Shown here: piece by piece, positions 17,378 to 55,914 of the stretch | How positions within the stretch are numbered: the first letter of the stretch is position 1 | Layout of the letters: the number at the start of each line of letters is the position of its first letter | Source of the DNA: an uncultured archaeon | GTDB lineage: Archaea; Aenigmatarchaeota; Aenigmatarchaeia; CG10238-14 | NCBI GenBank assembly: GCA_964392445.1 | Contig: CAYMPD010000004.1 | Coordinates: forward strand, 3,728-67,727 | Length of the DNA: 64,000 nt | Direction: 5' to 3' | Notes under the pieces: generated by a model | What the model was told of the DNA's origin: nothing | Seen by the model: only the letters and a program-made list of their open reading frames with translations | Database searches by the model: none | Made by a program: the position numbers and the translations under genes

Positions 17378-17402
17378 TTGGTAAAAATAGAGGTGAATAA
17401 AA

Positions 17403-18134
17403 ATGAAAAAAATAGGAATAATAGGTGGTATGGGACCTGAGGGAACTGCGGATTTGTACATGAAAATAGTAAGATATTACCAGGATAATTTTGGAGCAAA
17501 GTACGATAAAGATTTCCCACCGATGATGATCTACAGTGTCCCAATACCTGATCTAGTTGAAAATCTGGAAAATGAAAAAATAACTTTGGATATGTTATCT
17601 GAGGCAGTGAAGACATTGGAAAATGTTGGTTGCGATTTCCTAGTAATAGCGTGCAACACAGTCCAGTTTCTATTAGATGATCTTAGAGAATCAGTTAAAA
17701 TACCAATCCTGGGAATAGCCGAAATAAGTGCTAGGTTTGTGTCAAACAAAAGTTATAAAAAAGTGGGAATATTAGGAACAGAGGCAACTATATCTCAGAA
17801 AAAAGTTTATGAAAAAGATTTTCAGGAAATTGGGGTTGAATTAATTAAACCAATGAAAGATGACCAAGAAGAATTAACTAGAATAATAATGAACCAACTT
17901 GCAGGTGAAACAACAAAAAAGGAAAAAGATAACTTGAAGACGATAATTGAAAACTTGGAAACCCGTGGAACAGAAGCTGTTTTAATAGCATGTACAGACT
18001 TACCACCAATAATAAATCAGGAAGACTTTGATATCCCGATAATCGATTGCACACAAGTTTATGCTGATGAGGCGGCGAGATTATCTACTTTTAAATCTAA
18101 ATTCAATAATAATGTAGGAGATAATTATGTCTAA
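17403..18134 (+). CDS. Aspartate/glutamate racemase family protein (two-Cys type)
   Basis: IGIIGGMGP, IACNT and IACTDLP motifs. Confidence 0.9.
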   Translation: MKKIGIIGGMGPEGTADLYMKIVRYYQDNFGAKYDKDFPPMMIYSVPIPDLVENLENEKITLDMLSEAVKTLENVGCDFLVIACNTVQFLLDDLRESVKIPILGIAEISARFVSNKSYKKVGILGTEATISQKKVYEKDFQEIGVELIKPMKDDQEELTRIIMNQLAGETTKKEKDNLKTIIENLETRGTEAVLIACTDLPPIINQEDFDIPIIDCTQVYADEAARLSTFKSKFNNNVGDNYV

Positions 18135-26857: not shown

Positions 26858-27889
26858 TTACATTTTAAATCCAATTCCTTTAACACTAATGCTCTTACCT
26901 TCAACCTTAAACTTCACAGGTAACATCTTCTCAATAACCTTAACATTAGTAACAACATGATCTGTTGCTCCTTCCACTGAAACACTTGACTTTCCGTCAG
27001 CTAGCGCCAAGAAAGGCAGTATCTGGTCAGCCATATATTTGTCCAAGCAAGCTCCTCGCTCGAGCGATTTCACTAGTTCTTCGGCAGCTTCTCGACCAAC
27101 TATTTCTGCCTTTAACCCTCGTTCTCCAAGATAAGATGCACCCAAAACCGAATTTTCACAGATGGCATAACATGTACAACTTGATCCTCGGGATAAACTG
27201 TTAACACGTTTGTAGGTCATAGAAGCCTTAGTTTTAGAAAAATGGTACTGAAGTAGTCTTAAAGCACTCTCTCCCTGTCTTTTAGCAATACTTTTCGGTA
27301 AATCCCCACATACAGAGTCCACATACAAAGATTTAATCTCTCCCCGTGTTTCACATATCCAAGGTCTTAATTTGCGTGCAGGTTCTGATTTTACTTTAAT
27401 TCTTCCTCCACCTTTGGGATAATAGCCATGTTTAATGACTTCTATCCCAAGTTTAGCTCCTAGCTTGTTTAAAATTGGAAAAGCGACATTCTGGTAGTAC
27501 TGAACTGTGGGAGACCATTTAACTTCTGTTCCACCTATTATCTCAAAAGAAACACGTTTTTTAGCGAAAATAAGGATTGGTAATAGTGTTTGAAGCAAAA
27601 GAGTAACACTTCCGGCGGTTCCTATGTTTATTTTACCAGAACTGACATCTAACTTTTTTGGAGTGAATTGTAATTCAGTTGAACATTCCTCTAACCCATT
27701 AACAACCGCATCACAGAATTCTTTAACAATTTTTACCCCCATCATGTGCTGAGGACGAAGACCATGTTTTCCTAGGGGTTTATTAGTGCGGATATTGAAC
27801 AACTTGACTGGTTCTTGGGTTAATGCTGATAGACCTATGGCTGTTCTTAAAACCTGTCCTCCCCCACCAGATCCATCTATCTCTATCAT
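26858..27889 (-). CDS. rtcA: RNA 3'-terminal phosphate cyclase
   Basis: IDGSGGGGQVLR, GLRPQH, GTAGS, GYYPKGGG, catalytic H in DHVVTN. Confidence 0.95.
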   Translation of the reverse strand: MIEIDGSGGGGQVLRTAIGLSALTQEPVKLFNIRTNKPLGKHGLRPQHMMGVKIVKEFCDAVVNGLEECSTELQFTPKKLDVSSGKINIGTAGSVTLLLQTLLPILIFAKKRVSFEIIGGTEVKWSPTVQYYQNVAFPILNKLGAKLGIEVIKHGYYPKGGGRIKVKSEPARKLRPWICETRGEIKSLYVDSVCGDLPKSIAKRQGESALRLLQYHFSKTKASMTYKRVNSLSRGSSCTCYAICENSVLGASYLGERGLKAEIVGREAAEELVKSLERGACLDKYMADQILPFLALADGKSSVSVEGATDHVVTNVKVIEKMLPVKFKVEGKSISVKGIGFKM

Positions 27890-27925
27890 GAATAATAATT
27901 AGAAAAAATAAGTAAAATAAGTTAT
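27854..27925 (+). repeat. Direct repeat copy A (rtcA 5' end plus upstream spacer)
   Basis: 27854-27891 matches 29144-29181 at 37/38 nt; weaker similarity continues about 35 nt. Confidence 0.9.
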
Positions 27926-28489
27926 ACACCTCAAGTTTTTTTTGGATTTCGCTTTGCTGTCTTTCTTAGATTTTTTTAATCTCTTTTTCTTATTATCCTC
28001 CATCTCTTTCAATACTATTCTAACTTTGTTAACTATTTCTTTTGAGGTTTCTTCTAATACCTCCAGTTTTTCCTTTTCAATTTCTGTTTTTGTCCCATAT
28101 TGCATATCTTCTCTCATCGTCTTGGCATCGTTTTTAACTCCTTTACTAACGTTTCTTACACTTTTAACATCCTTTTTTGTAAGTTTTATCTTCTTCAGAT
28201 CTATCAGATGTTCTATTGTGGTGAATGTACATTCTTGATTTCGTGACTCATAACCTACTTTTGAAAGAATTGCAAGAAATGAATGATACATCGAATAAAA
28301 TCCAGCATTTACAGCCCAGTCAGTGAATCCACCTTTTATGTTGTGTTTCATTGCTTTTAAGTTATGTAAAGCCTTCTCTATGTGCTTTTTAGATTCTTCA
28401 TCACTCGACTTAACTTTTTTGATACCTCTGTGGTATTTTCCTTTACCTTTTCTTAAACACCAGTTGAATTTATCCTCTGTTCTTGTCAT
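27899..28489 (-). CDS. HEPN-domain protein (putative RNase toxin)
   Basis: HIEKALHNL...WAVNAGFYSMYH...GYESRNQEC; ATGA overlap with the MNT gene. Confidence 0.8.
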   Translation of the reverse strand: MTRTEDKFNWCLRKGKGKYHRGIKKVKSSDEESKKHIEKALHNLKAMKHNIKGGFTDWAVNAGFYSMYHSFLAILSKVGYESRNQECTFTTIEHLIDLKKIKLTKKDVKSVRNVSKGVKNDAKTMREDMQYGTKTEIEKEKLEVLEETSKEIVNKVRIVLKEMEDNKKKRLKKSKKDSKAKSKKNLRCITYFTYFF

Positions 28490-29082
28490 TTCATCATCAC
28501 CTTTTTGATTGCTTTCACTATATAACGACTTCCCCATAAAATAAAACCCTTTCTTATTATATCTAGTATCACTTGATCTTTTTCTCTGAGGTTTTGTTCC
28601 AAGTCTTTTTCTGTTTGGAAAACAGGGTGTATTTCTTTTGCTGATATAGAATTGATTTCCTCTATTTTCTTTTTTAGCTTCCTATAGTTTGAAGAATCGG
28701 ATAAAACCAATATATCAATATCATTTGCTTCTTTTGGATTTTCTATGAAAGAGCCGAAAACAATTAGTGAGTATGAAATATCTTTTAGTCCATCTAGGTT
28801 TTCCACCAATACCTCTAGATCTGGATTTTCTTTCTTTTGGGAGAGAATCAATTCTGAAACTTTAATTGCAATTTCATTATTTAGATCGATAGAATAAAAT
28901 ACTGAATTTCCCATCTTTTCAGGGACAAGTATTTCTTGAGCTTCTAACCTTTTGAGTATCTTATATCCTCCCATTGGACTAAGATCAAGTTCTCTGGTTA
29001 ATTGGTTGATGCTATACTTTTCTGTGAAATTTCTAATTAAAAAATTAATTACTCTTGCTTCATTCTTTGTTAATGATATCAT
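28486..29082 (-). CDS. wHTH-fused minimal nucleotidyltransferase (MNT antitoxin)
   Basis: N-terminal wHTH; VFGSF...NDIDIL motif. Confidence 0.85.
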   Translation of the reverse strand: MISLTKNEARVINFLIRNFTEKYSINQLTRELDLSPMGGYKILKRLEAQEILVPEKMGNSVFYSIDLNNEIAIKVSELILSQKKENPDLEVLVENLDGLKDISYSLIVFGSFIENPKEANDIDILVLSDSSNYRKLKKKIEEINSISAKEIHPVFQTEKDLEQNLREKDQVILDIIRKGFILWGSRYIVKAIKKVMMK

Positions 29083-29122
29083 ATACCTCTAGTATATAAT
29101 TATATACCTCTAGTATATAAAG
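29081..29122. promoter_or_regulatory. Tandem 19-bp repeat (period 21), each with a TATAC-N5-GTATA palindrome, overlapping the TATA box and start codon: probable autoregulatory operator
   Basis: ATATACCTCTAGTATATAA at 29081-29099 and 29102-29120. Confidence 0.65.
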
Positions 29123-29143
29123 ATTTCTTTAGTGGAACTATAA

Positions 29144-29216
29144 CTGTCCTCCCCCACCAGATCCATCTATTTCTATCATGATTAATTAATTGGTAAAAGA
29201 AGTAAAAGTAAGTTAT
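29144..29216 (+). repeat. Direct repeat copy B; on the minus strand it encodes the truncated rtcA start MIEIDGSGGGGQL*
   Basis: Direct sequence comparison with 27854-27925. Confidence 0.9.
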
Positions 29217-29494
29217 CCATCAAAATCCTTAAGAACGGTTTCAGCATAATCCATTATTTTCTTGTTTATGTTCATCTGTGCATCTTCTACTTTTTGCTTT
29301 ATATCTGGATCGTCTCCCATAGTGTTTTCCACTGTCCACAAAACCAACAAATTACTTTGTAATTCTGACCAAAAAAAAGCTTTTTGTACAAACCTCTTCA
29401 TCTTATCTGGATTATTGGCTTTTAAAGCCTCCTCTTTCCAGGTCTGGTAATGAGGTGTACATGTTTTAATTATTTCACGTGGCTCTAATTTCAT
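29213..29494 (-). CDS. Hypothetical helical protein
   Basis: Lys-rich ORF with a plausible start. Confidence 0.7.
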   Translation of the reverse strand: MKLEPREIIKTCTPHYQTWKEEALKANNPDKMKRFVQKAFFWSELQSNLLVLWTVENTMGDDPDIKQKVEDAQMNINKKIMDYAETVLKDFDG

Positions 29495-35502: not shown

Positions 35503-35913
35503 ATGTGGCTTGATAAAGTGAAAAAAATACTATATGGAATTTGTTTGACTTCTACAATTTCAGGTTGTGGAGATGTGAACATGGATACAAATAGAGAAAT
35601 ATCTAGGTCCGTAACGAGGGAAATTAAAGCAGAGAAATTTGAATGTAAAGAGATTTTTTATCCTGGGGCGGGGGGAGTTTTTGCGAAAGAAATAATAATC
35701 TCAATAGAAGATGAGAATGGAGTATTGTACAGAAGTAATGCTGTATGGCCGACTGAAAATGAAAAATTTGGTTACTTTGAAGAATTATGTGGTAGAATGA
35801 GAAGAGGGAAGATAGGAGCAGGAGCGGATGTAGCTCTTTACGGAGAAATAAGACCAAGAAGAGACAGTATTTTACAAGTAGATGAAATATACCTGACTGA
35901 TCTAGGTGATTAA
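35503..35913 (+). CDS. Hypothetical protein, possible lipoprotein
   Basis: N-terminal hydrophobic stretch ending ISGC; GAGG SD. Confidence 0.6.
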   Translation: MWLDKVKKILYGICLTSTISGCGDVNMDTNREISRSVTREIKAEKFECKEIFYPGAGGVFAKEIIISIEDENGVLYRSNAVWPTENEKFGYFEELCGRMRRGKIGAGADVALYGEIRPRRDSILQVDEIYLTDLGD

Positions 35914-35914
35914 A

Positions 35915-36598
35915 ATGAAAACAATAGGAATAATAGGTGGTATGGGACCTGAAACAACTTCAAAATTTTATTTAGAGCTAATTAGGTTGTCTAGAAGGGA
36001 AATGGGTCATTTACCATCAATCATAATAGAAAGCTTACCGATTAGTTTTAGTTCGGAAGAGAATTTTGTTAAAAACGGAATTAAAGAATCTGAATTCGAG
36101 AGATTAATGATTAAATCGGCGAAACGTTTCGAGGAGATAGGGGTTAATCTGGTAGTAATCCCATCAAATACAGCCCACTTTTTCATAGAAAAAGTCAGGG
36201 AAAGCACAAGTATTCCTGTGATGAATATCATAAAGGAAACTACTAAATTGTGTCTCAAAAGGGGTTTTAGGAAAGTTGGGGTTCTGGGGACTGAAATTAC
36301 AATGAAAAATAGATTATATGAGAAAGAATTCGAGAAATTTAACATCGAAATTATTAAATTGGATAAGAAAAATCAGGAAGAATTATCAAATATAATACAT
36401 AGAATAGTCACTGGTGATACTAAAACAAAAGATCAAAAAAATTTAGAAAATCTAATGGAAATTTTAAAAAATAAGGGTGCAGAAGTAATAATTTTGGGTT
36501 GCACAGACCTTCAAAATCTAATCAAAGATAGTTCTAATATTGAAATAATCGATAGTATGCATACTCTTGTTGAAGCAACATTCAGGAAATTATTATGA
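35915..36598 (+). CDS. Aspartate/glutamate racemase family protein (first Cys replaced by Ser)
   Basis: IGIIGGMGP, IPSNTAH, LGCTDL. Confidence 0.88.
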   Translation: MKTIGIIGGMGPETTSKFYLELIRLSRREMGHLPSIIIESLPISFSSEENFVKNGIKESEFERLMIKSAKRFEEIGVNLVVIPSNTAHFFIEKVRESTSIPVMNIIKETTKLCLKRGFRKVGVLGTEITMKNRLYEKEFEKFNIEIIKLDKKNQEELSNIIHRIVTGDTKTKDQKNLENLMEILKNKGAEVIILGCTDLQNLIKDSSNIEIIDSMHTLVEATFRKLL

Positions 36599-47790: not shown

Positions 47791-48594
47791 ATGAAGAGAA
47801 TGCAAAACAAAGTAGCTCTAGTAACCGGAGCTGCATTGGGATATAAGAACGGTGGTCCATCAATAGGCAGTGCTATAGCTTTCAAGTTGGCTTCTGAAGG
47901 AGCGAAAGTAGTAATTGTGGATATCAACGAAGAAATGGGAAAAAGGGCGGCTGAGAGGATAAGGCAAGAGAGTGGAGAGGCTGTGTTTATTGAATGTGAT
48001 GTATCCAAAACTGAAGATGTTAAAAGAGCCATAGAAACAACTAAGAAAGAATTCGGTGAATTACATTGTATCGTGAATTGCGCTGCCTCATATAAAGGAG
48101 ATATTTTCAAAAATGTGGTTGAAACATCTGAAAAAGACTGGAAACATATAATTGATATTAACTTGAATGGTTATTACAGATTTGCTAAGTATGGAATACC
48201 TTTGATTCTTGAGAGTGGAGGAGGGACTGTGGTTAATATATCTTCTGCTGCCGCTTTTAAAGTGAATAAGAATTTCAGTGTTTATCCTGTTACAAAGTCT
48301 GCGATTAACTCGTTGACAAGAACTATAGCTATAGATTTCGCACCAGAGATTAGATGTAATGCAATATGTCCCGGATTTGTTAGGATAGCTAATTCAGAGA
48401 ATGATCGGACGGGAGAAGAATTAAAGGAATGGCTTGAAGGAATAGCTAAAACTTATCCATTAAAAAGAGTATGCTCGGTTGAGGAAATAGCCAATGTTGC
48501 ATTGTTTTTGGCGAGCGAGGAATCTTCTTACATCAACGGGGAGTGTATAGTTGTTGATGGTGGTAGATCTGTTGCGGATAGTCATGAGTTTTAG
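47791..48594 (+). CDS. SDR family oxidoreductase
   Basis: VTGAA, VNCAA, VNISS, YPVTK (YxxxK), CNAICPG, VDGG. Confidence 0.92.
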   Translation: MKRMQNKVALVTGAALGYKNGGPSIGSAIAFKLASEGAKVVIVDINEEMGKRAAERIRQESGEAVFIECDVSKTEDVKRAIETTKKEFGELHCIVNCAASYKGDIFKNVVETSEKDWKHIIDINLNGYYRFAKYGIPLILESGGGTVVNISSAAAFKVNKNFSVYPVTKSAINSLTRTIAIDFAPEIRCNAICPGFVRIANSENDRTGEELKEWLEGIAKTYPLKRVCSVEEIANVALFLASEESSYINGECIVVDGGRSVADSHEF

Positions 48595-48595
48595 T
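48553..48595 (+). repeat. Direct repeat A (3' end of the SDR gene)
   Basis: 37/43 identical to 51360-51402. Confidence 0.75.
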
Positions 48596-48604
48596 AACCG
48601 GTGA

Positions 48605-49000
48605 GCAAGAAACATCTCGACTTTAGTCAGGAGATGAATTGCGATAATTATCTTATCCTGAAAATTGAAAAAAATAGATGGAGAGAGAATTTTCCCTATA
48701 ATTCGTACTTTTGCTTAGTGATAGTTGGGTTCTCTTCCTTAAAAAAATTTCAGAGGTTTTGAATATGAGATGGACTAGATATAACCATACGACTGGAGAA
48801 TCTTATCTCCATTTGCAGTTTACACCAAAATATAGGAGAATAGTGTTTACTGAGAGAATAATAAGGAGAAGTTGTAAAATTTTATGAGATGGATAGCGAA
48901 AGATTCGGGCGGTTGGTTCAATAACAGCAGAATTGAGAAAATTTTACATTGAAAGATACCAAAACAAACATTGGTGAGGAATAGATTACTTGACCTACCT
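48605..49000 (+). mobile_element. Degraded IS200/IS605-family element (TnpA fragment 48765-48887 and subterminal hairpin 48613-48636)
   Basis: MRWTRYNHTTGESYLHLQFTPKYRRIVF matches the Y1 transposase N-terminus; hairpin CATCTC-GAC-TTTA-GTC-AG-GAGATG; right boundary uncertain. Confidence 0.75.
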
Positions 49001-49164
49001 AAAGTTGAAAATTCAGGGATAAAACTTTATCACTAACTTTTGAAAGAACCTTCGAGGTCTTAAATCGAGATATTTAGTTGCATCCTAGAAATGGTTTCAC
49101 AAAAAGGTAAAAACCGAATAAAAGGTAGTTTTTGAGATTCCAAAATTATAAAAAAGAAAAAAAA

Positions 49165-49884
49165 TCATTCCTTAAACAACCATCCAAATAAACCCTTGTT
49201 CCTTTTTTCTCGATTTGCCATTTTTTGTAATCTATTTTGTTCTTGCTCTATTTGTTGAATTTGTTCCTGGAAAATTTGTTTTATTTCCTCGTCTTCTATT
49301 CTTTCTTCTAGTTCTCTTAATGCTCGAATTCTTTCTTCGTTTCCGTTAACCTCCTGTTCTAACTCATCGGCAGCCTCTTCATCTCCACCAAGTAATAATC
49401 TTCTAAGCATCCCCCTCGTCTGGATTCTCTCTTCTACTTTTAAAGTCGCCTGAACAGAATTGTTGAACTCCATGGCTATCTCTGAGACTTCATCTCCAAT
49501 ACCCCCCTTTTCTTCAAGCATCTGTCTCATGTATAATAAATTATGTACAGACTCTCTCACTCTGTTTTGATTTCTGTATATTTTCTGTATATTTTCAGGT
49601 AAACCTTGGATTTCTTCATCCATTTCCTGATATCTCTTCTGGGTTCTTTCTCTTATTTGTGATATACTCTGGGCCGCTTCTGGGATATTTTTTCGTTGTC
49701 GTTTGACTAGATCCTCCTCTTTAATTGGCTTTCTTTCTTCTGATGAAGAAGACTGATTGCCGTCGGTCGGAGGTGAATCTATATCTGGTCTGTTTCCTTC
49801 TCCACCTGGCGTTTCAACTGGTTGTGAGAGGATAAGCTGGGGTAAAAGTAGTACCAACAAAGCTAATGCAATTATTTTTTTCAT
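49165..49884 (-). CDS. Secreted coiled-coil Glu/Gln-rich protein
   Basis: Signal peptide, heptad-rich body, C-terminal KGLFGWLF. Confidence 0.75.
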   Translation of the reverse strand: MKKIIALALLVLLLPQLILSQPVETPGGEGNRPDIDSPPTDGNQSSSSEERKPIKEEDLVKRQRKNIPEAAQSISQIRERTQKRYQEMDEEIQGLPENIQKIYRNQNRVRESVHNLLYMRQMLEEKGGIGDEVSEIAMEFNNSVQATLKVEERIQTRGMLRRLLLGGDEEAADELEQEVNGNEERIRALRELEERIEDEEIKQIFQEQIQQIEQEQNRLQKMANREKRNKGLFGWLFKE

Positions 49885-49963
49885 CCTTATTACCACCTAC
49901 TATTATTTGTTTTCTTTCAATTAATTAATTTTCTCTTCTTTTAGAGAATCTATAAATATTAAA

Positions 49964-51304
49964 TTATAACAATATCCATGCATATAATACCCAAAGTATT
50001 ATCACAATGAAATTCAACCATACTCCATACGAGAACATTTTCTTAAAAGTCACATGTTTATTCTTAGAAATTATAGCATTAGGAGGAGTTGCAATTGGTA
50101 ACATAAAAGCCATATCACTACACACAGCAACTGTAAATATTCCTAACAAAGGACTAAAGCCCGCTGACTTGTAAAATTGTATTATTATAGGTATAAGAGT
50201 TGCTGATAAGGCCGTGTTTGAAATCAGTTCTGTGGAGAAATTGGCTATTATTGCCGTAATGAGAAGATATGAAATTTCATTTTTTGGAACAAAACTCATA
50301 AATTGGATGAAAAGGTCAGAGATCCCCACGCTTAAGAGGATATTGCCTAGGGCCAAAGCACCACCTAACATCAAAATAATATCCCAGGGGATTTTGACAT
50401 CTTTAATTTTTAAAATTGGTTCTTTCTTGGTTCTGATTAGAAATAGTAAGGATGCACCTAATAGACCGATAATAACATCACTAATTTCGATGGTAGATTT
50501 TTGAGATAAATATGGTCGAAGCAACCAGAACAAGACGGTTATTAAAAGGATTAAAATAGTCAATTTTGCATTGGTTTCAAGTCTGATTCTTTTTGTCTTT
50601 ACTCTGATTTTCTTGGTGTTGGGAGCTCTCCAACTCATGTATATCCACAGGATCAGTAAAAGAAGTGAAGTAAAAGGCATTAAAATTTTAGCCCATCCTA
50701 AAAACCCTATATTTACACCCTCTCTCATCATATATTCCGCTCCTATAAGGTTGGTGGTTGTACCTATCAAAATAGCTGTGCCGCCGATTGAGGCCGCATA
50801 AGCTATTGACAATAACAGAGAAACTCGATATTCTTCGTCTTCGTTCTTTATCGCTTCTAATATCCCTACACCAATGGGAAGCATGAGCATTGTCGCAGTT
50901 GTGTTCGCCATTAAAGTTGATAAAAGGGCAGTTGATAATATTGTTCCTAGAATAACAAGTCGTGAACTTTTTCCAGATAGTTTCATTAGAGAAAAAACTA
51001 TCTTTTCATCAATTTTCCATTTTGATACAGCTGAAGAAAAGATGAAACCAGAAATAAATAACAAAAGTATACTGGAATAATAATTAGATACTATTTCTCC
51101 AAATGATATCAAGTTTAGAAGAGGGCCAAAAATTAAAGGTATAAGCCCAGTTACCCCGATTGGTATTAATTTAGTTGTCCACAATATTGTACATGTAAAT
51201 AATATCAGAAGTGATGCTCTGATACTTTTCTGTAAAGGTAGAAGATAGATCAATAACCAAGTTAGTAGAATTAGCAGTAACCAAAAAAGTTTTTTCGTTT
51301 TCAT
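49964..51304 (-). CDS. SLC13/DASS family anion transporter
   Basis: LMANTATT, IGTTTN, SNTA, LPIATPPNAI. Confidence 0.9.
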   Translation of the reverse strand: MKTKKLFWLLLILLTWLLIYLLPLQKSIRASLLILFTCTILWTTKLIPIGVTGLIPLIFGPLLNLISFGEIVSNYYSSILLLFISGFIFSSAVSKWKIDEKIVFSLMKLSGKSSRLVILGTILSTALLSTLMANTTATMLMLPIGVGILEAIKNEDEEYRVSLLLSIAYAASIGGTAILIGTTTNLIGAEYMMREGVNIGFLGWAKILMPFTSLLLLILWIYMSWRAPNTKKIRVKTKRIRLETNAKLTILILLITVLFWLLRPYLSQKSTIEISDVIIGLLGASLLFLIRTKKEPILKIKDVKIPWDIILMLGGALALGNILLSVGISDLFIQFMSFVPKNEISYLLITAIIANFSTELISNTALSATLIPIIIQFYKSAGFSPLLGIFTVAVCSDMAFMLPIATPPNAIISKNKHVTFKKMFSYGVWLNFIVIILWVLYAWILL

Positions 51305-51359
51305 CGAAGATAATTAGATTTCGAGTTTAATAAAACCTGTATTATTTCAAATATTTTTG

Positions 51360-51402
51360 GTTGATGGTGATAGATATATTTCTGATAGTCATGAATTTTA
51401 GT
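51360..51402 (+). repeat. Direct repeat B (vestigial SDR 3' end, reads VDGDRYISDSHEF*)
   Basis: Direct comparison with 48553-48595. Confidence 0.75.
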
Positions 51403-53093: not shown

Positions 53094-53143
53094 AGAATTA
53101 TATTGGGATTTGAGGGTTTAAAGGATTTTGATAGTAAAATTCA

Positions 53144-53234
53144 CGCCCCGAGCAGGACTCGAACCTGCGGCCTTCTGGTTAACAGCTTCAGCCCTGAATT
53201 CAGGTCAACTGCTCTACCACTGAGCTACCGGGGC
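53144..53234 (-). tRNA. tRNA-Asn(GTT) copy 1 with a 19-nt intron at 30/31 (53187-53205)
   Basis: GCCCCGG/TCGGGGC acceptor, G73, CTGTTAA loop; BHB helix CAGT/GCTG. Confidence 0.9.
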
Positions 53235-53235
53235 A

Positions 53236-55819: not shown

Positions 55820-55914
55820 CGCCTCGGGTCGGACTCGAACCGACGGCCTTCTGGTTAACAGCTTCAGCCCTGAAAAAGTCAGGTCAACTGCTCTACCTAC
55901 TGAGCTACCGAGGC
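55820..55914 (-). tRNA. tRNA-Asn(GTT) copy 2 with a 22-nt intron at 30/31 (55863-55884)
   Basis: GCCTCGG/CCGAGGC acceptor, G73, same anticodon arm and BHB as copy 1. Confidence 0.9.

What the first reader, a model, noticed from the sequence alone, without database searches (positions are those of the whole stretch)
27854..29216. MNT-HEPN cassette inserted at the rtcA start and flanked by a duplicated rtcA 5' end
Seen: a ~72-bp direct repeat (38-bp core, 1 mismatch) brackets the wHTH-MNT/HEPN pair. The upstream copy is a dead 13-codon rtcA stub (MIEIDGSGGGGQL*), and the downstream copy starts the intact rtcA. No integrase is present. Established: HEPN RNases leave 2',3'-cyclic phosphate ends, and RtcA works in RNA end healing and repair. 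Inference: the cassette integrated by recombination at the rtcA 5' end, could excise precisely, and now places rtcA downstream of a TA-autoregulated promoter, pairing an RNA-cutting toxin with an RNA-repair enzyme.
Basis: partly seen in the sequence, partly recalled or inferred. Interest (0 to 1): 0.66.

Follow-up and report, generated by a model that had tools for sequence, protein, structure and literature searches.

The report
Mobile archaeal toxin-antitoxin cassette duplicating its target
A small two-gene HEPN/MNT cassette with no mobility gene has inserted just inside the rtcA gene of a DPANN archaeon and duplicated about 73 bases of the target, so rtcA stays intact; related cassettes do the same at many unrelated genes, so the link to RNA repair is a coincidence.

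Summary
A 73-nt direct repeat (27854-27926 and 29144-29216, 89% identical) brackets a wHTH-MNT/HEPN pair. The upstream copy is a 13-codon rtcA stub and the downstream copy starts the intact rtcA. A syntenic relative (L073) has the clean empty site, with the upstream gene followed by 32 nt and then rtcA, so this is an insertion with target duplication. It recurs: 11-13 of 47 homologous cassette loci from other DPANN archaea carry direct repeats of 17-132 nt made from a different local gene end each time. Other small cassettes (AbiE, PIN, a Schlafen-like gene) do the same. The cassettes have no inverted ends and no recombinase, and the window encodes no integrase or transposase. The closest precedent is "insertion with long target duplication", described for restriction-modification genes in bacteria.

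rtcA adjoins this cassette only here (1 of about 60 loci). Relatives hold unrelated cassettes at the same spot. rtcA keeps its own conserved promoter inside the duplicated segment. The HEPN protein is of the "Class II" type, which lacks the Rx4-6H RNase motif. How the duplication arises remains open. I favour one-ended homologous plus illegitimate recombination over a staggered cut.

The parts
29213..29494 (-). gene93: conserved 93-aa gene of unknown function and native upstream neighbour of rtcA. Its stop codon (29213-29215) is the first triplet of repeat copy A.
   Evidence: ORF; no Pfam match. Homologues at 74-75% identity lie directly upstream of rtcA or of the variable spot in L066-L071 and L073.
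29144..29216 (-). Repeat copy A (upstream, 'stub' copy): the gene93 stop, the 33-nt rtcA promoter region and rtcA codons 1-12.
   Evidence: At the positions where the two copies differ, copy A mostly carries the state seen in relatives.
29138..29179 (-). Dead rtcA stub ORF MIEIDGSGGGGQL*: 12 rtcA codons, then Leu and a stop supplied by the insert.
   Evidence: Read from the sequence. The junction ...GGACAG|TTATAG is covered by a Logan contig.
29078..29131 (-). Cassette promoter/operator: a TTTATATA box followed by two 19-21-nt imperfect palindromes (TATATACTAGAGGTATATA twice). The second palindrome overlaps the MNT start codon.
   Evidence: Tandem and palindromic repeats (D6, I1). The region is conserved at 84-96% nt identity in more than 45 loci whose proteins are only 40-50% identical. 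Consensus and co-varying half-sites are shown.
28486..29082 (-). wHTH-MNT (198 aa): an N-terminal winged-helix DNA-binding domain fused to a minimal nucleotidyltransferase with an intact GS-x10-DxD motif (G110 S111 ... D121 D123). Putative antitoxin and autorepressor.
   Evidence: Pfam; invariant columns. The family has 701 representative clusters at E<=1e-3.
27899..28489 (-). HEPN protein (196 aa, PF05168/UPF0332). Its start overlaps the MNT stop (ATGA). It has no Rx4-6H motif; the invariant motifs are YESRNQECT and R126-E-x-x-Q-Y131-G. A Lys-rich C-terminal extension of about 32 aa is unique to this copy and reads through filler into repeat copy B.
   Evidence: The AlphaFold model has pLDDT 90.9. 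The best PDB fold match is the AF_0298 HEPN protein 2hsb, TM 0.87.
27993..29131 (-). Cassette core: the 1.14-kb unit that is homologous (76-77% nt) to cassettes at other loci.
   Evidence: BLAST against L002, L022 and L001. Units of the same size (1142-1166 nt) are shared by cassettes 91-95% identical at unrelated sites.
27927..27992 (-). A-rich filler of about 66 nt and unknown origin, between the cassette core and repeat copy B. A matching 12-nt filler lies on the other side at 29132-29143.
   Evidence: Limits of homology.
27854..27926 (-). Repeat copy B (downstream copy): the rtcA core promoter and codons 1-12 of the intact gene.
   Evidence: Its 3' half (CTAATTATTATTC-ATG) is identical to the empty site of L073.
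26858..27889 (-). Intact rtcA (RNA 3'-terminal phosphate cyclase, 343 aa).
   Evidence: Pfam RTC and RTC_insert. The closest homologues are 84% identical and from Aenigmarchaeota MAGs.

Best explanation
What it is (about 0.85). The element is a 1.14-kb self-contained Class II HEPN/MNT cassette. It has its own TATA box and two palindromic operators, a wHTH-MNT gene and a translationally coupled HEPN gene. It is a horizontally mobile module of DPANN archaea and carries no recombinase. In this Aenigmarchaeota-like genome it landed after codon 12 of rtcA by an 'insertion with long target duplication'. About 73 nt of the target were duplicated: the gene93 stop codon, the rtcA core promoter and rtcA codons 1-12. 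As a result rtcA remains intact with its own promoter, and a dead 13-codon stub is left upstream. The adjacency to rtcA is incidental, because the gene93|rtcA junction is a hotspot that holds different cassettes in relatives.

How the module probably works (inferred). The wHTH domain binds the operators and autorepresses the operon. The MNT domain (GS-x10-DxD) nucleotidylylates the invariant Tyr131 of the HEPN partner to keep it inactive. Whether that partner is an RNase is doubtful.

How the duplication arose (about 0.45, my preferred route). A DNA fragment from a related lineage already carried the cassette at this hotspot. It was integrated with one homologous end, in the promoter or 5' end of rtcA, and one illegitimate end, after codon 12. 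This is homology-facilitated illegitimate recombination; an equivalent route is Campbell-type integration of a circle carrying the cassette plus the gene end. Under this route copy A is the recipient's allele and copy B is the donor's. The two repeats could later support precise loss.
For: Insertion and empty site: L073 shows gene93, 32 nt, then rtcA with full synteny. L065, L066, L069 and L072 have one copy of the segment.

Recurrence: target-derived direct repeats flank homologous cassettes in L002 (61-86 nt), L005 (124), L006 (32), L017 (97), L018 (61), L027 (45), L037 (132), L038 (33), L049 (31), L051 (66) and L041 (112). Each repeat has a different sequence and is made of the adjacent gene's end.

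Mobility: cassette cores 90-95% identical sit in unrelated flanks, including two copies in one MAG (L016 and L020).

No transposon features: terminal inverted repeats are absent in 12 of 12 cassettes, there is no tRNA target, and the window has no recombinase.

The same signature around other cargo: AbiEii/AbiEi, a PIN-like gene with UPF0175, a SLFN_AlbA_2 gene, a DUF234 ATPase, and a transporter pair in the window.

Precedent: Furuta et al. 2010 (PMC2853133) and Nobusato et al. 2000.

For the homology-assisted route: all 9 differences between the copies lie in the left 46 nt and the last 27 nt are identical. The stub keeps the consensus promoter states, and both copies look like natural alleles (copy B resembles L073, copy A resembles L066). 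Across 12 repeat pairs the differences are biased to third codon positions (15/11/33), and six loci differ only synonymously (11 synonymous vs 0 non-synonymous, with 5 vs 0 in L032). One repeat boundary lies 0-13 nt from the neighbour's stop codon or at the start of its promoter in 9 of 12 cases. Relatives end their own cassettes at the same promoter boundary.
Against: No donor lineage with the cassette at this site without a duplication was found. No excision product, circle or empty-site read was seen, although depth was low. Pooled over all pairs, the synonymous fraction of repeat differences (23 of 59) is what a simple duplication would also give if the stub decayed neutrally while the functional copy stayed constrained, so the allelic signal is not decisive. 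Later allelic replacement of the functional copy by ordinary recombination could mimic it. The polarity of mismatches is not consistent across loci; in L017 they lie at the end of the repeat far from the cassette. Cassette units have surprisingly sharp and similar ends at independent sites, which hints at an end-defining mechanism that this model does not supply. Toxicity, nucleotidylylation and operator binding are all untested.
Confidence: 0.6

Rival explanations
1. True target-site duplication. Two nicks about 73 nt apart on opposite strands, made by a host repair nuclease, a stalled fork or a transposase acting in trans, opened the target. The cassette was ligated in and the overhangs were filled in. 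The copies then diverged in place.
For: This is the simplest reading of repeats that are sharp on both sides. Several loci have repeats 95-98% identical (L002, L005, L017, L037). Long and variable target duplications are documented for restriction-modification insertions (PMC2853133). The pooled synonymous fraction fits decay after duplication.
Against: Repeat length varies from 17 to 132 nt, unlike any fixed-stagger enzyme. No inverted ends were found and the window has no transposase. In the window the unconstrained stub is the copy closer to the family consensus, and differences are confined to 46 of 73 nt (chance about 0.016). One boundary clusters at gene ends.
Confidence: 0.3
2. Site-specific integration. 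The repeats are attL and attR of a tiny mobilisable element that is moved by a tyrosine or serine integrase encoded elsewhere.
For: Direct repeats that restore a gene end are typical of integrase-borne elements. In L006 and L038 the stub continues with a weakly similar in-frame tail, like a surrogate gene end (my reading, weak). L060 has a 17-nt exact repeat.
Against: Every locus has a different repeat sequence and a different target gene, which would need a different integrase each time. No integrase lies in the cassette or anywhere in the 64-kb window. No tRNA targets were found. No motif is shared between the repeats.
Confidence: 0.06
3. The cassette was retained at rtcA because the HEPN RNase makes 2',3'-cyclic-phosphate ends and RtcA takes part in their repair, with rtcA now driven by the TA-regulated promoter.
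For: The HEPN stop lies 9 nt before the rtcA ATG, with no hairpin terminator between them. HEPN RNases in general leave cyclic phosphate ends (established knowledge).
Against: The adjacency is unique to this genome among about 60 cassette loci. The same spot holds a DUF5678/aspartyl-protease pair or an 87-89-aa ORF in relatives. rtcA keeps its conserved promoter. A T6 run specific to copy B lies upstream of the rtcA ATG and could terminate archaeal transcription. The HEPN protein lacks Rx4-6H, and the Class II toxin function is unknown (PMC7641770). RtcA makes cyclic ends rather than repairing them.
Confidence: 0.04
4. Assembly artefact: a chimeric join of strain variants that creates a false duplication.
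For: The source is a low-coverage metagenome (about 4-5x).
Against: Both junctions are present in an independent k-mer assembly with no mismatch, and the identical run (27 nt) is shorter than the k-mer. The two copies differ at 9 positions. The same architecture appears in a dozen assemblies from different studies.
Confidence: 0.02

Closest known systems
[quoted passage not shown] 2000, Gene 259:99; Furuta, Abe & Kobayashi 2010, PMC2853133)
   Same: A compact addiction-type gene module with no mobility gene is flanked by direct repeats of tens to more than 100 bp. The repeats are a single-copy sequence in the empty site of a relative, and they often overlap the 3' end of the neighbouring gene. 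The mechanism is unknown.
   Different: The cargo here is a HEPN/MNT pair, which is not known to cut DNA. The 2010 authors suspected that DNA double-strand breakage by the RM cargo was the common cause. The hosts here are DPANN archaea, not naturally competent bacteria. The pattern recurs within a single cassette family (11-13 of 47 loci).
Class II HEPN/MNT modules (PF05168 + PF01909; Makarova et al. 2009, PMC2701414; Yao et al. 2020, PMC7641770)
   Same: MNT gene followed by an overlapping HEPN gene. The MNT keeps the GS-x10-DxD motif. The HEPN protein lacks RX4HXY but keeps a conserved Tyr. Prevalent in archaea.
   Different: The MNT here is fused to an N-terminal winged-helix domain and is paired with a strongly conserved double-palindrome operator. 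The window's HEPN copy has a unique C-terminal extension created by the insertion.
Class I HepT/MntA type VII toxin-antitoxin (Shewanella SO_3166/SO_3165)
   Same: A nucleotidyltransferase antitoxin next to a HEPN-fold partner. Likely neutralisation by nucleotidylylation of a Tyr next to the conserved Arg.
   Different: No Rx4-6H RNase motif (R126-x4-Y131 instead). A different Pfam family (PF05168, not DUF86). Only a weak fold match to 7bxo.
Homology-facilitated illegitimate recombination in naturally transformable bacteria (de Vries & Wackernagel 2002; cited from memory)
   Same: Foreign DNA is integrated with one homologous anchor and one microhomology join. This can leave duplications or deletions next to the insert.
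   Different: It has not been demonstrated in archaea or for these cassettes, and is inferred here only from sequence patterns.
IS1634/IS1549-type insertion sequences that create long, variable direct repeats (IS4 family review PMC2266710 appeared in search and was not read; details from memory)
   Same: Target duplications of variable, unusually long length.
   Different: Those elements encode a transposase and have inverted ends. These cassettes have neither.

Membership tests
Insertion with long target duplication (Furuta 2010 criteria) | The insert is flanked by direct repeats longer than 30 bp | tested here: met
   73 nt at 89% identity.
Insertion with long target duplication (Furuta 2010 criteria) | A related genome has the empty site with one copy of the repeated sequence | tested here: met
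   L073 has gene93, 32 nt, then rtcA with conserved synteny. L065, L066, L069 and L072 also have a single copy.
Insertion with long target duplication (Furuta 2010 criteria) | No integrase, transposase or other mobile element in the insert, and an insert shorter than 20 kb | tested here: met
   The insert is 1.2 kb and holds only the MNT and HEPN genes. The window has no recombinase and the cassettes have no inverted ends.
Insertion with long target duplication (Furuta 2010 criteria) | The cargo is a restriction-modification system | tested here: not met
   The cargo is a HEPN/MNT pair. I therefore file it as a variant of the phenomenon, not a member of the RM set.
Class II HEPN/MNT module | Adjacent genes with a PF01909-type MNT carrying GS-x10-DxD and a PF05168 HEPN | tested here: met
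   Pfam. G110, S111, D121 and D123 are invariant. The HEPN fold is confirmed.
Class II HEPN/MNT module | The HEPN protein lacks RX4HXY but keeps a conserved Tyr | tested here: met
   R126, E127 and Y131 are invariant and no His follows within 4-6 residues. This matches PMC7641770.
Class II HEPN/MNT module | A toxic HEPN protein neutralised by the MNT protein | not testable with these tools
   Needs expression assays. PMC7641770 states that no biochemical work had been done on Class II modules.
Class I HepT/MntA (type VII TA) | RX4HXY RNase motif in the toxin | tested here: not met
IS or MITE (non-autonomous transposon) | Terminal inverted repeats and a short target duplication of fixed length | tested here: not met
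   No inverted ends above shuffled controls in 12 cassettes. Duplications range from 17 to 132 nt.
Integrase-borne integrative element | An integrase gene in or next to the element; att core often in a tRNA gene | tested here: not met
   No integrase. No tRNA at six loci tested.
Integron gene cassette | An attC imperfect palindrome at the cassette end and a nearby intI/attI | tested here: inconclusive
   The window has no intI, and the only palindromes are the promoter operators. No dedicated attC model was run.
Rtc RNA repair operon | Conserved linkage of rtcA with partner genes | tested here: not met
   The HEPN/MNT-rtcA adjacency occurs only in the window. The neighbours of rtcA vary among relatives.

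The most novel reading that the evidence does not exclude
DPANN archaea may have a general, recombinase-free way of inserting small defence and toxin-antitoxin cassettes that creates long, variable target duplications. The moved units are sharply delimited, running from the promoter to the stop codon. Because the cargo here does not cut DNA, the process would be host-encoded, or driven by the cassette's own DNA-binding nucleotidyltransferase, rather than caused by cargo-induced DNA breaks as was proposed for restriction-modification systems.
Probability: 0.3. Interest if true: 0.75.

Novelty: new variant of a known kind. Interest (0 to 1): 0.5.

Why it matters
How toxin-antitoxin and restriction-modification modules move when they carry no mobility genes has been open since about 2000. 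This family offers a dozen natural insertion events with different targets, one clean empty site and a hotspot with alternative cassettes. Competing models (staggered break versus one-ended homologous recombination) can therefore be tested on population data. The family also shows that long target duplication does not need a DNA-cutting cargo, and that it occurs in archaea with tiny, gene-dense genomes. In such genomes the duplication is what lets an insertion inside a gene end be tolerated. For annotation, short "dead" gene stubs next to defence cassettes mark recent cassette gain. They should not be read as functional linkage with the neighbouring gene.

Tried and rejected
- Exact-protein look-ups of the window's rtcA and MNT found nothing on record.
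- The first two locus scans failed because the alignment was too diverse. A narrower alignment worked.
- Read-level search for empty-site or circular junctions: no joints in the window (3 runs, about 4-5x), L037 or L005. Only Logan contigs were available, so absence means little.
- No RNA runs were listed, so co-transcription could not be tested.
- Rfam gave nothing real for the 70-nt GC-rich element shared by L002 and L069; the only hit was a chance T-box match at E 0.47. The motif is absent from the window.
- The sigma-70 and hairpin-terminator scan does not apply to archaea and found nothing above shuffled controls.
- A PDB sequence search for the HEPN protein gave no hit. The fold search was needed instead.
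- The codon-position and synonymous tests on repeat differences are suggestive but not decisive.
- In-register identity outside the repeats is at background level, so the 'diverged homologous tails' I thought I saw in L006 and L038 are not established.
- The repeat in L054 is an internal 52-nt element inside HEPN, not a flanking duplication, and was excluded.
- Literature searches for toxin-antitoxin together with target duplication in archaea found no prior description.
Full report
**1. The observation**

All genes in the region are on the minus strand. In gene order they are:
- gene93 (29494->29213, 93 aa, no Pfam match)
- repeat copy A (29216->29144)
- a promoter with two 21-nt repeats (29131->29078)
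- wHTH-MNT (29082->28486)
- HEPN (28489->27899, start overlapping the MNT stop)
- about 66 nt of A-rich filler
- repeat copy B (27926->27854)
- rtcA (27889->26858)

The repeat is 64 nt at 88% without gaps. With one 1-nt indel it is 73-74 nt at 89%. It is the strongest direct repeat in the window.

Copy A contains the stop codon of gene93, the 33-nt intergenic region and 12 rtcA codons. It then runs into TTA TAG, giving MIEIDGSGGGGQL*. Copy B starts the intact 343-aa RtcA (Pfam RTC 2.8e-72).

Independent Logan contigs of one public run cover both novel junctions with no mismatch. The longest stretch identical between the copies (27 nt) is shorter than the assembler's k-mer. The duplication is therefore physical, not an assembly artefact.

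No ORF of at least 130 aa in the 64-kb window has an integrase, transposase or recombinase domain. The window is ordinary archaeal chromosome, with TBP, ribosomal proteins and aminoacyl-tRNA synthetases. The best-named RtcA relatives are from Aenigmarchaeota MAGs.

**2. It is an insertion, and the empty site exists**

L073 has 72% RtcA identity and 74% gene93 identity. Its gene order is beta-CASP nuclease, a 104-aa membrane protein on the opposite strand, gene93, 32 nt, then rtcA. This is the window's order without the cassette. The sequence reads ...GAG TAA CTTACTTTTACTTCCTTTTCTAATTATTATTC ATG ATAGAGATAGATGG....

Four further relatives also carry the segment once. The insertion point is after rtcA codon 12. 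The duplicated target runs from the gene93 stop codon to that codon.

The 36-40 nt upstream of the ATG (AAACTWC-TTTTACTT-...-AATTAWTWA) are conserved in all relatives. This is where a BRE/TATA element for a leaderless archaeal mRNA is expected. rtcA therefore kept its own core promoter inside copy B.

**3. The junction is a hotspot**

Between gene93 and the rtcA promoter:
- L066-L068 carry an 87-89-aa ORF.
- L069-L071 carry a DUF5678 gene plus a retropepsin-like aspartyl-protease gene.
- L065 and L072 have an AsnC regulator as the upstream neighbour.

The 3' side of rtcA also varies: a PIN pair in L069, and small ORFs in L065 and L073. In each case the insert ends exactly where the conserved rtcA promoter block begins.

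**4. The cassette family and its flanks elsewhere**

The wHTH-MNT protein has 20 word-indexed homologues and 701 representative clusters at E<=1e-3. Two collection scans returned 62 loci, almost all from Woese-, Pace-, Nano- or related DPANN archaea.

I compared the 700 nt upstream of MNT with the 2 kb downstream in each locus and ran self-BLAST. Flanking direct repeats appeared as follows.

| Locus | Repeat length (nt) | Identity | Spacing (nt) |
|---|---|---|---|
| L002 | 61-86 | 97% | 1335 |
| L005 | 124 | 98% | |
| L006 | 32 | 94% | |
| L017 | 97 | 97% | |
| L018 | 61 | 79% | |
| L027 | 45, at the two ends of a 1290-nt contig | | |
| L037 | 132 | 95% | |
| L038 | 33 | | |
| L049 | 31 | | |
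| L051 | 66 | | |
| L041 | 112, around two cassettes | | |
| L060 | 17 | | |

This is 11-13 of 47 non-redundant loci that could be evaluated. Every repeat has a different sequence and is made of the end of the adjacent gene. Most often it is the 3' end. In L027 and L041 it is the 5' end, as in the window.

The same test on 122 tiles of the window found only two other pairs: a tRNA paralogue pair and another insertion. None was found in the rtcA control loci.

None of 12 cassettes has terminal inverted repeats above shuffled controls. No tRNA is involved.

Cassette cores 90-95% identical lie in completely unrelated flanks, including two copies in one MAG. The shared unit is always about 1.14-1.17 kb. 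It runs from about 20 nt upstream of the TATA box to 0-11 nt past the HEPN stop.

Other small cassettes in the same loci show the same signature:
- AbiEii/AbiEi flanked by the duplicated 3' end of maf (L032)
- a PIN-like gene with UPF0175 (L020)
- a SLFN_AlbA_2/HATPase_c_4 gene (L014)
- a DUF234 ATPase (L001)
- a 106-aa ORF (L030)
- in the window itself, a CitMHS transporter plus a 239-aa protein flanked by a duplicated 43-nt 3' end of an SDR gene (48553-48595 and 51360-51402)

**5. What the module is**

MNT has the intact GS-x10-DxD nucleotidyltransferase motif and an N-terminal winged helix. The promoter region is far more conserved than the proteins. Its consensus in 46 loci is GAAAnnTTTATATACTnnnGGTATATAATTATATACTnnAGGTATATA. 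The palindrome half-sites co-vary (TATAAAC...GTTTATA, ATGTAC...GTACAT). This fits a dimeric wHTH autorepressor that covers the TATA box and the start site.

The HEPN partner is PF05168/UPF0332. A confident model (pLDDT 90.9) matches the AF_0298, TM0613 and sacsin HEPN domains and only weakly matches HepT.

Alignments of 29 and 48 homologues show invariant YESRNQECT and R126-E-x-x-Q-Y131-G but no Rx4-6H. This is the "Class II HEPN/MNT" of Yao et al. 2020. Those authors note the missing RNase motif, the conserved Tyr and the lack of any biochemical validation (PMC7641770).

By analogy with Class I, I infer that MNT nucleotidylylates Y131. The activity of the HEPN protein is unknown.

In the window the HEPN ORF has lost its normal stop. 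It reads through 66 nt of filler into copy B and ends 9 nt before the rtcA ATG.

**6.

Among L001-L064, rtcA occurs only in L063 (2.4 kb away, 37% identity) and weakly in L004. The adjacency is unique to the window. Taken with the hotspot, the retained rtcA promoter and the non-canonical HEPN, the toxin-repair pairing is not supported. Read-through into rtcA cannot be excluded, because no RNA data exist.

**7. How the duplication arose**

[quoted passage not shown] Its mechanism is unknown, and it was tentatively ascribed to cargo-induced double-strand breaks (PMC2853133). I found no report of it for toxin-antitoxin modules or for archaea.

Two routes fit. The first is a staggered break with fill-in. 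The second is import of a cassette-bearing fragment from a related lineage with one homologous and one illegitimate join, or a circle carrying the cassette plus the gene end that integrates by a single crossover.

Evidence leaning to the second route:
- All nine differences between the window's copies lie in the left 46 nt (chance about 0.016).
- The unconstrained stub keeps the consensus promoter states.
- Each copy resembles a natural allele: copy B's 3' half equals L073, and copy A's equals the L066 type.
- Over 12 repeat pairs the differences fall 15/11/33 by codon position, and six loci differ only synonymously.
- One repeat boundary sits 0-13 nt from a stop codon or at a promoter start in 9 of 12 cases.

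Evidence against the second route:
- The pooled synonymous fraction (23 of 59) is also what duplication followed by one-sided constraint predicts.
- The polarity of mismatches is inconsistent across loci.
- Later allelic exchange could mimic the pattern.
- The sharply uniform cassette ends are explained by neither route.

My estimates are about 0.45 for the homology-assisted route, 0.30 for the staggered break, and the remainder for other or unknown routes.

**8. Verdict**

The insertion and duplication reading is supported and extended to a family-wide pattern. The RNA-damage/repair pairing is not supported. This is a new variant of a known kind of event: long target duplication, here with a non-nuclease cargo in archaea. 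It is of moderate interest.

Noticed in passing
window 48553-48595 and 51360-51402 (insert 48596-51359): A second insertion with target duplication in the same window. A 43-nt repeat (86%) duplicates the 3' end of an SDR gene (47791-48594). It brackets two minus-strand genes, a CitMHS/Na-sulfate-type transporter and a 239-aa protein with no Pfam match.
   Followed up: partly
L069 691-721 and 1483-1513 (also L070, L071); L002 847-915: At the same gene93|rtcA hotspot, a DUF5678 gene plus a retropepsin-like aspartyl-protease gene are flanked by a 31-nt GC-rich repeat (ATTGCTCCGCTAYCGCTMCRCA). About 70 nt containing this motif recur at 93% identity at the left end of the HEPN/MNT cassette of L002, in a different genome. 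There is no Rfam match and the origin is unknown.
   Followed up: partly
window 53143-53235 and 55820-55914: A tRNA-Ser(TGA) and a second tRNA-like gene that ARAGORN reads with a 4-base anticodon (gact). They are 90% identical over 84 nt and 2.7 kb apart, and they flank an Asn/Asp-type tRNA synthetase and small ORFs. This may be a paralogue with an intron or an old integration scar.
   Followed up: no
L054 3860-3910 and 4836-4887: A 52-nt repeated element (AATTGGACG..GTGCCAAGAGCACGGGGTATTAAACCC...) sits upstream of MNT and again inside the HEPN gene, which it splits. It looks like a small mobile repeat and is not a flanking duplication.
   Followed up: no
L001 603-860 and 1209-2781; L022: In the closest relative of the window's cassette (74% MNT identity), HEPN is truncated to 85 aa. 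A DUF234 archaeal ATPase gene next to it is flanked by a 41-nt repeat that duplicates the 3' end of an intein-containing helicase gene.
   Followed up: partly
L017 3372-3468/5076-5172 and 3777-3884/5926-6033; L041 3-114/3055-3166: L017 has two interleaved, not nested, repeat pairs around the cassette. The second pair is homologous to the repeat that brackets an RHH-PIN cassette plus a HEPN/MNT cassette in L041. This points to successive events at one site.
   Followed up: no
L027, L029, L031, L033, L034, L040, L046, L053, L060: Many metagenome contigs of 1.2-1.6 kb hold the cassette and nothing else. L027 (1290 nt) begins and ends in its 45-nt repeat. This fits assembly graphs that break at a polymorphic or multi-copy element, but low coverage could also explain it.
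   Followed up: no
window 17397-17458 and 35909-35970: Two Asp/Glu racemase paralogues (17403-18134 and 35906-36598) share a 62-nt 5' end and upstream region at 84% identity.
   Followed up: no
window 27899-27992: The window's HEPN copy has lost the family's normal stop. It gains a Lys-rich tail of about 32 aa encoded by A-rich filler, plus 'ITYFTYFF' encoded by the duplicated rtcA promoter. A T6 run in copy B, absent from copy A, lies 14-19 nt before the rtcA ATG.
   Followed up: partly
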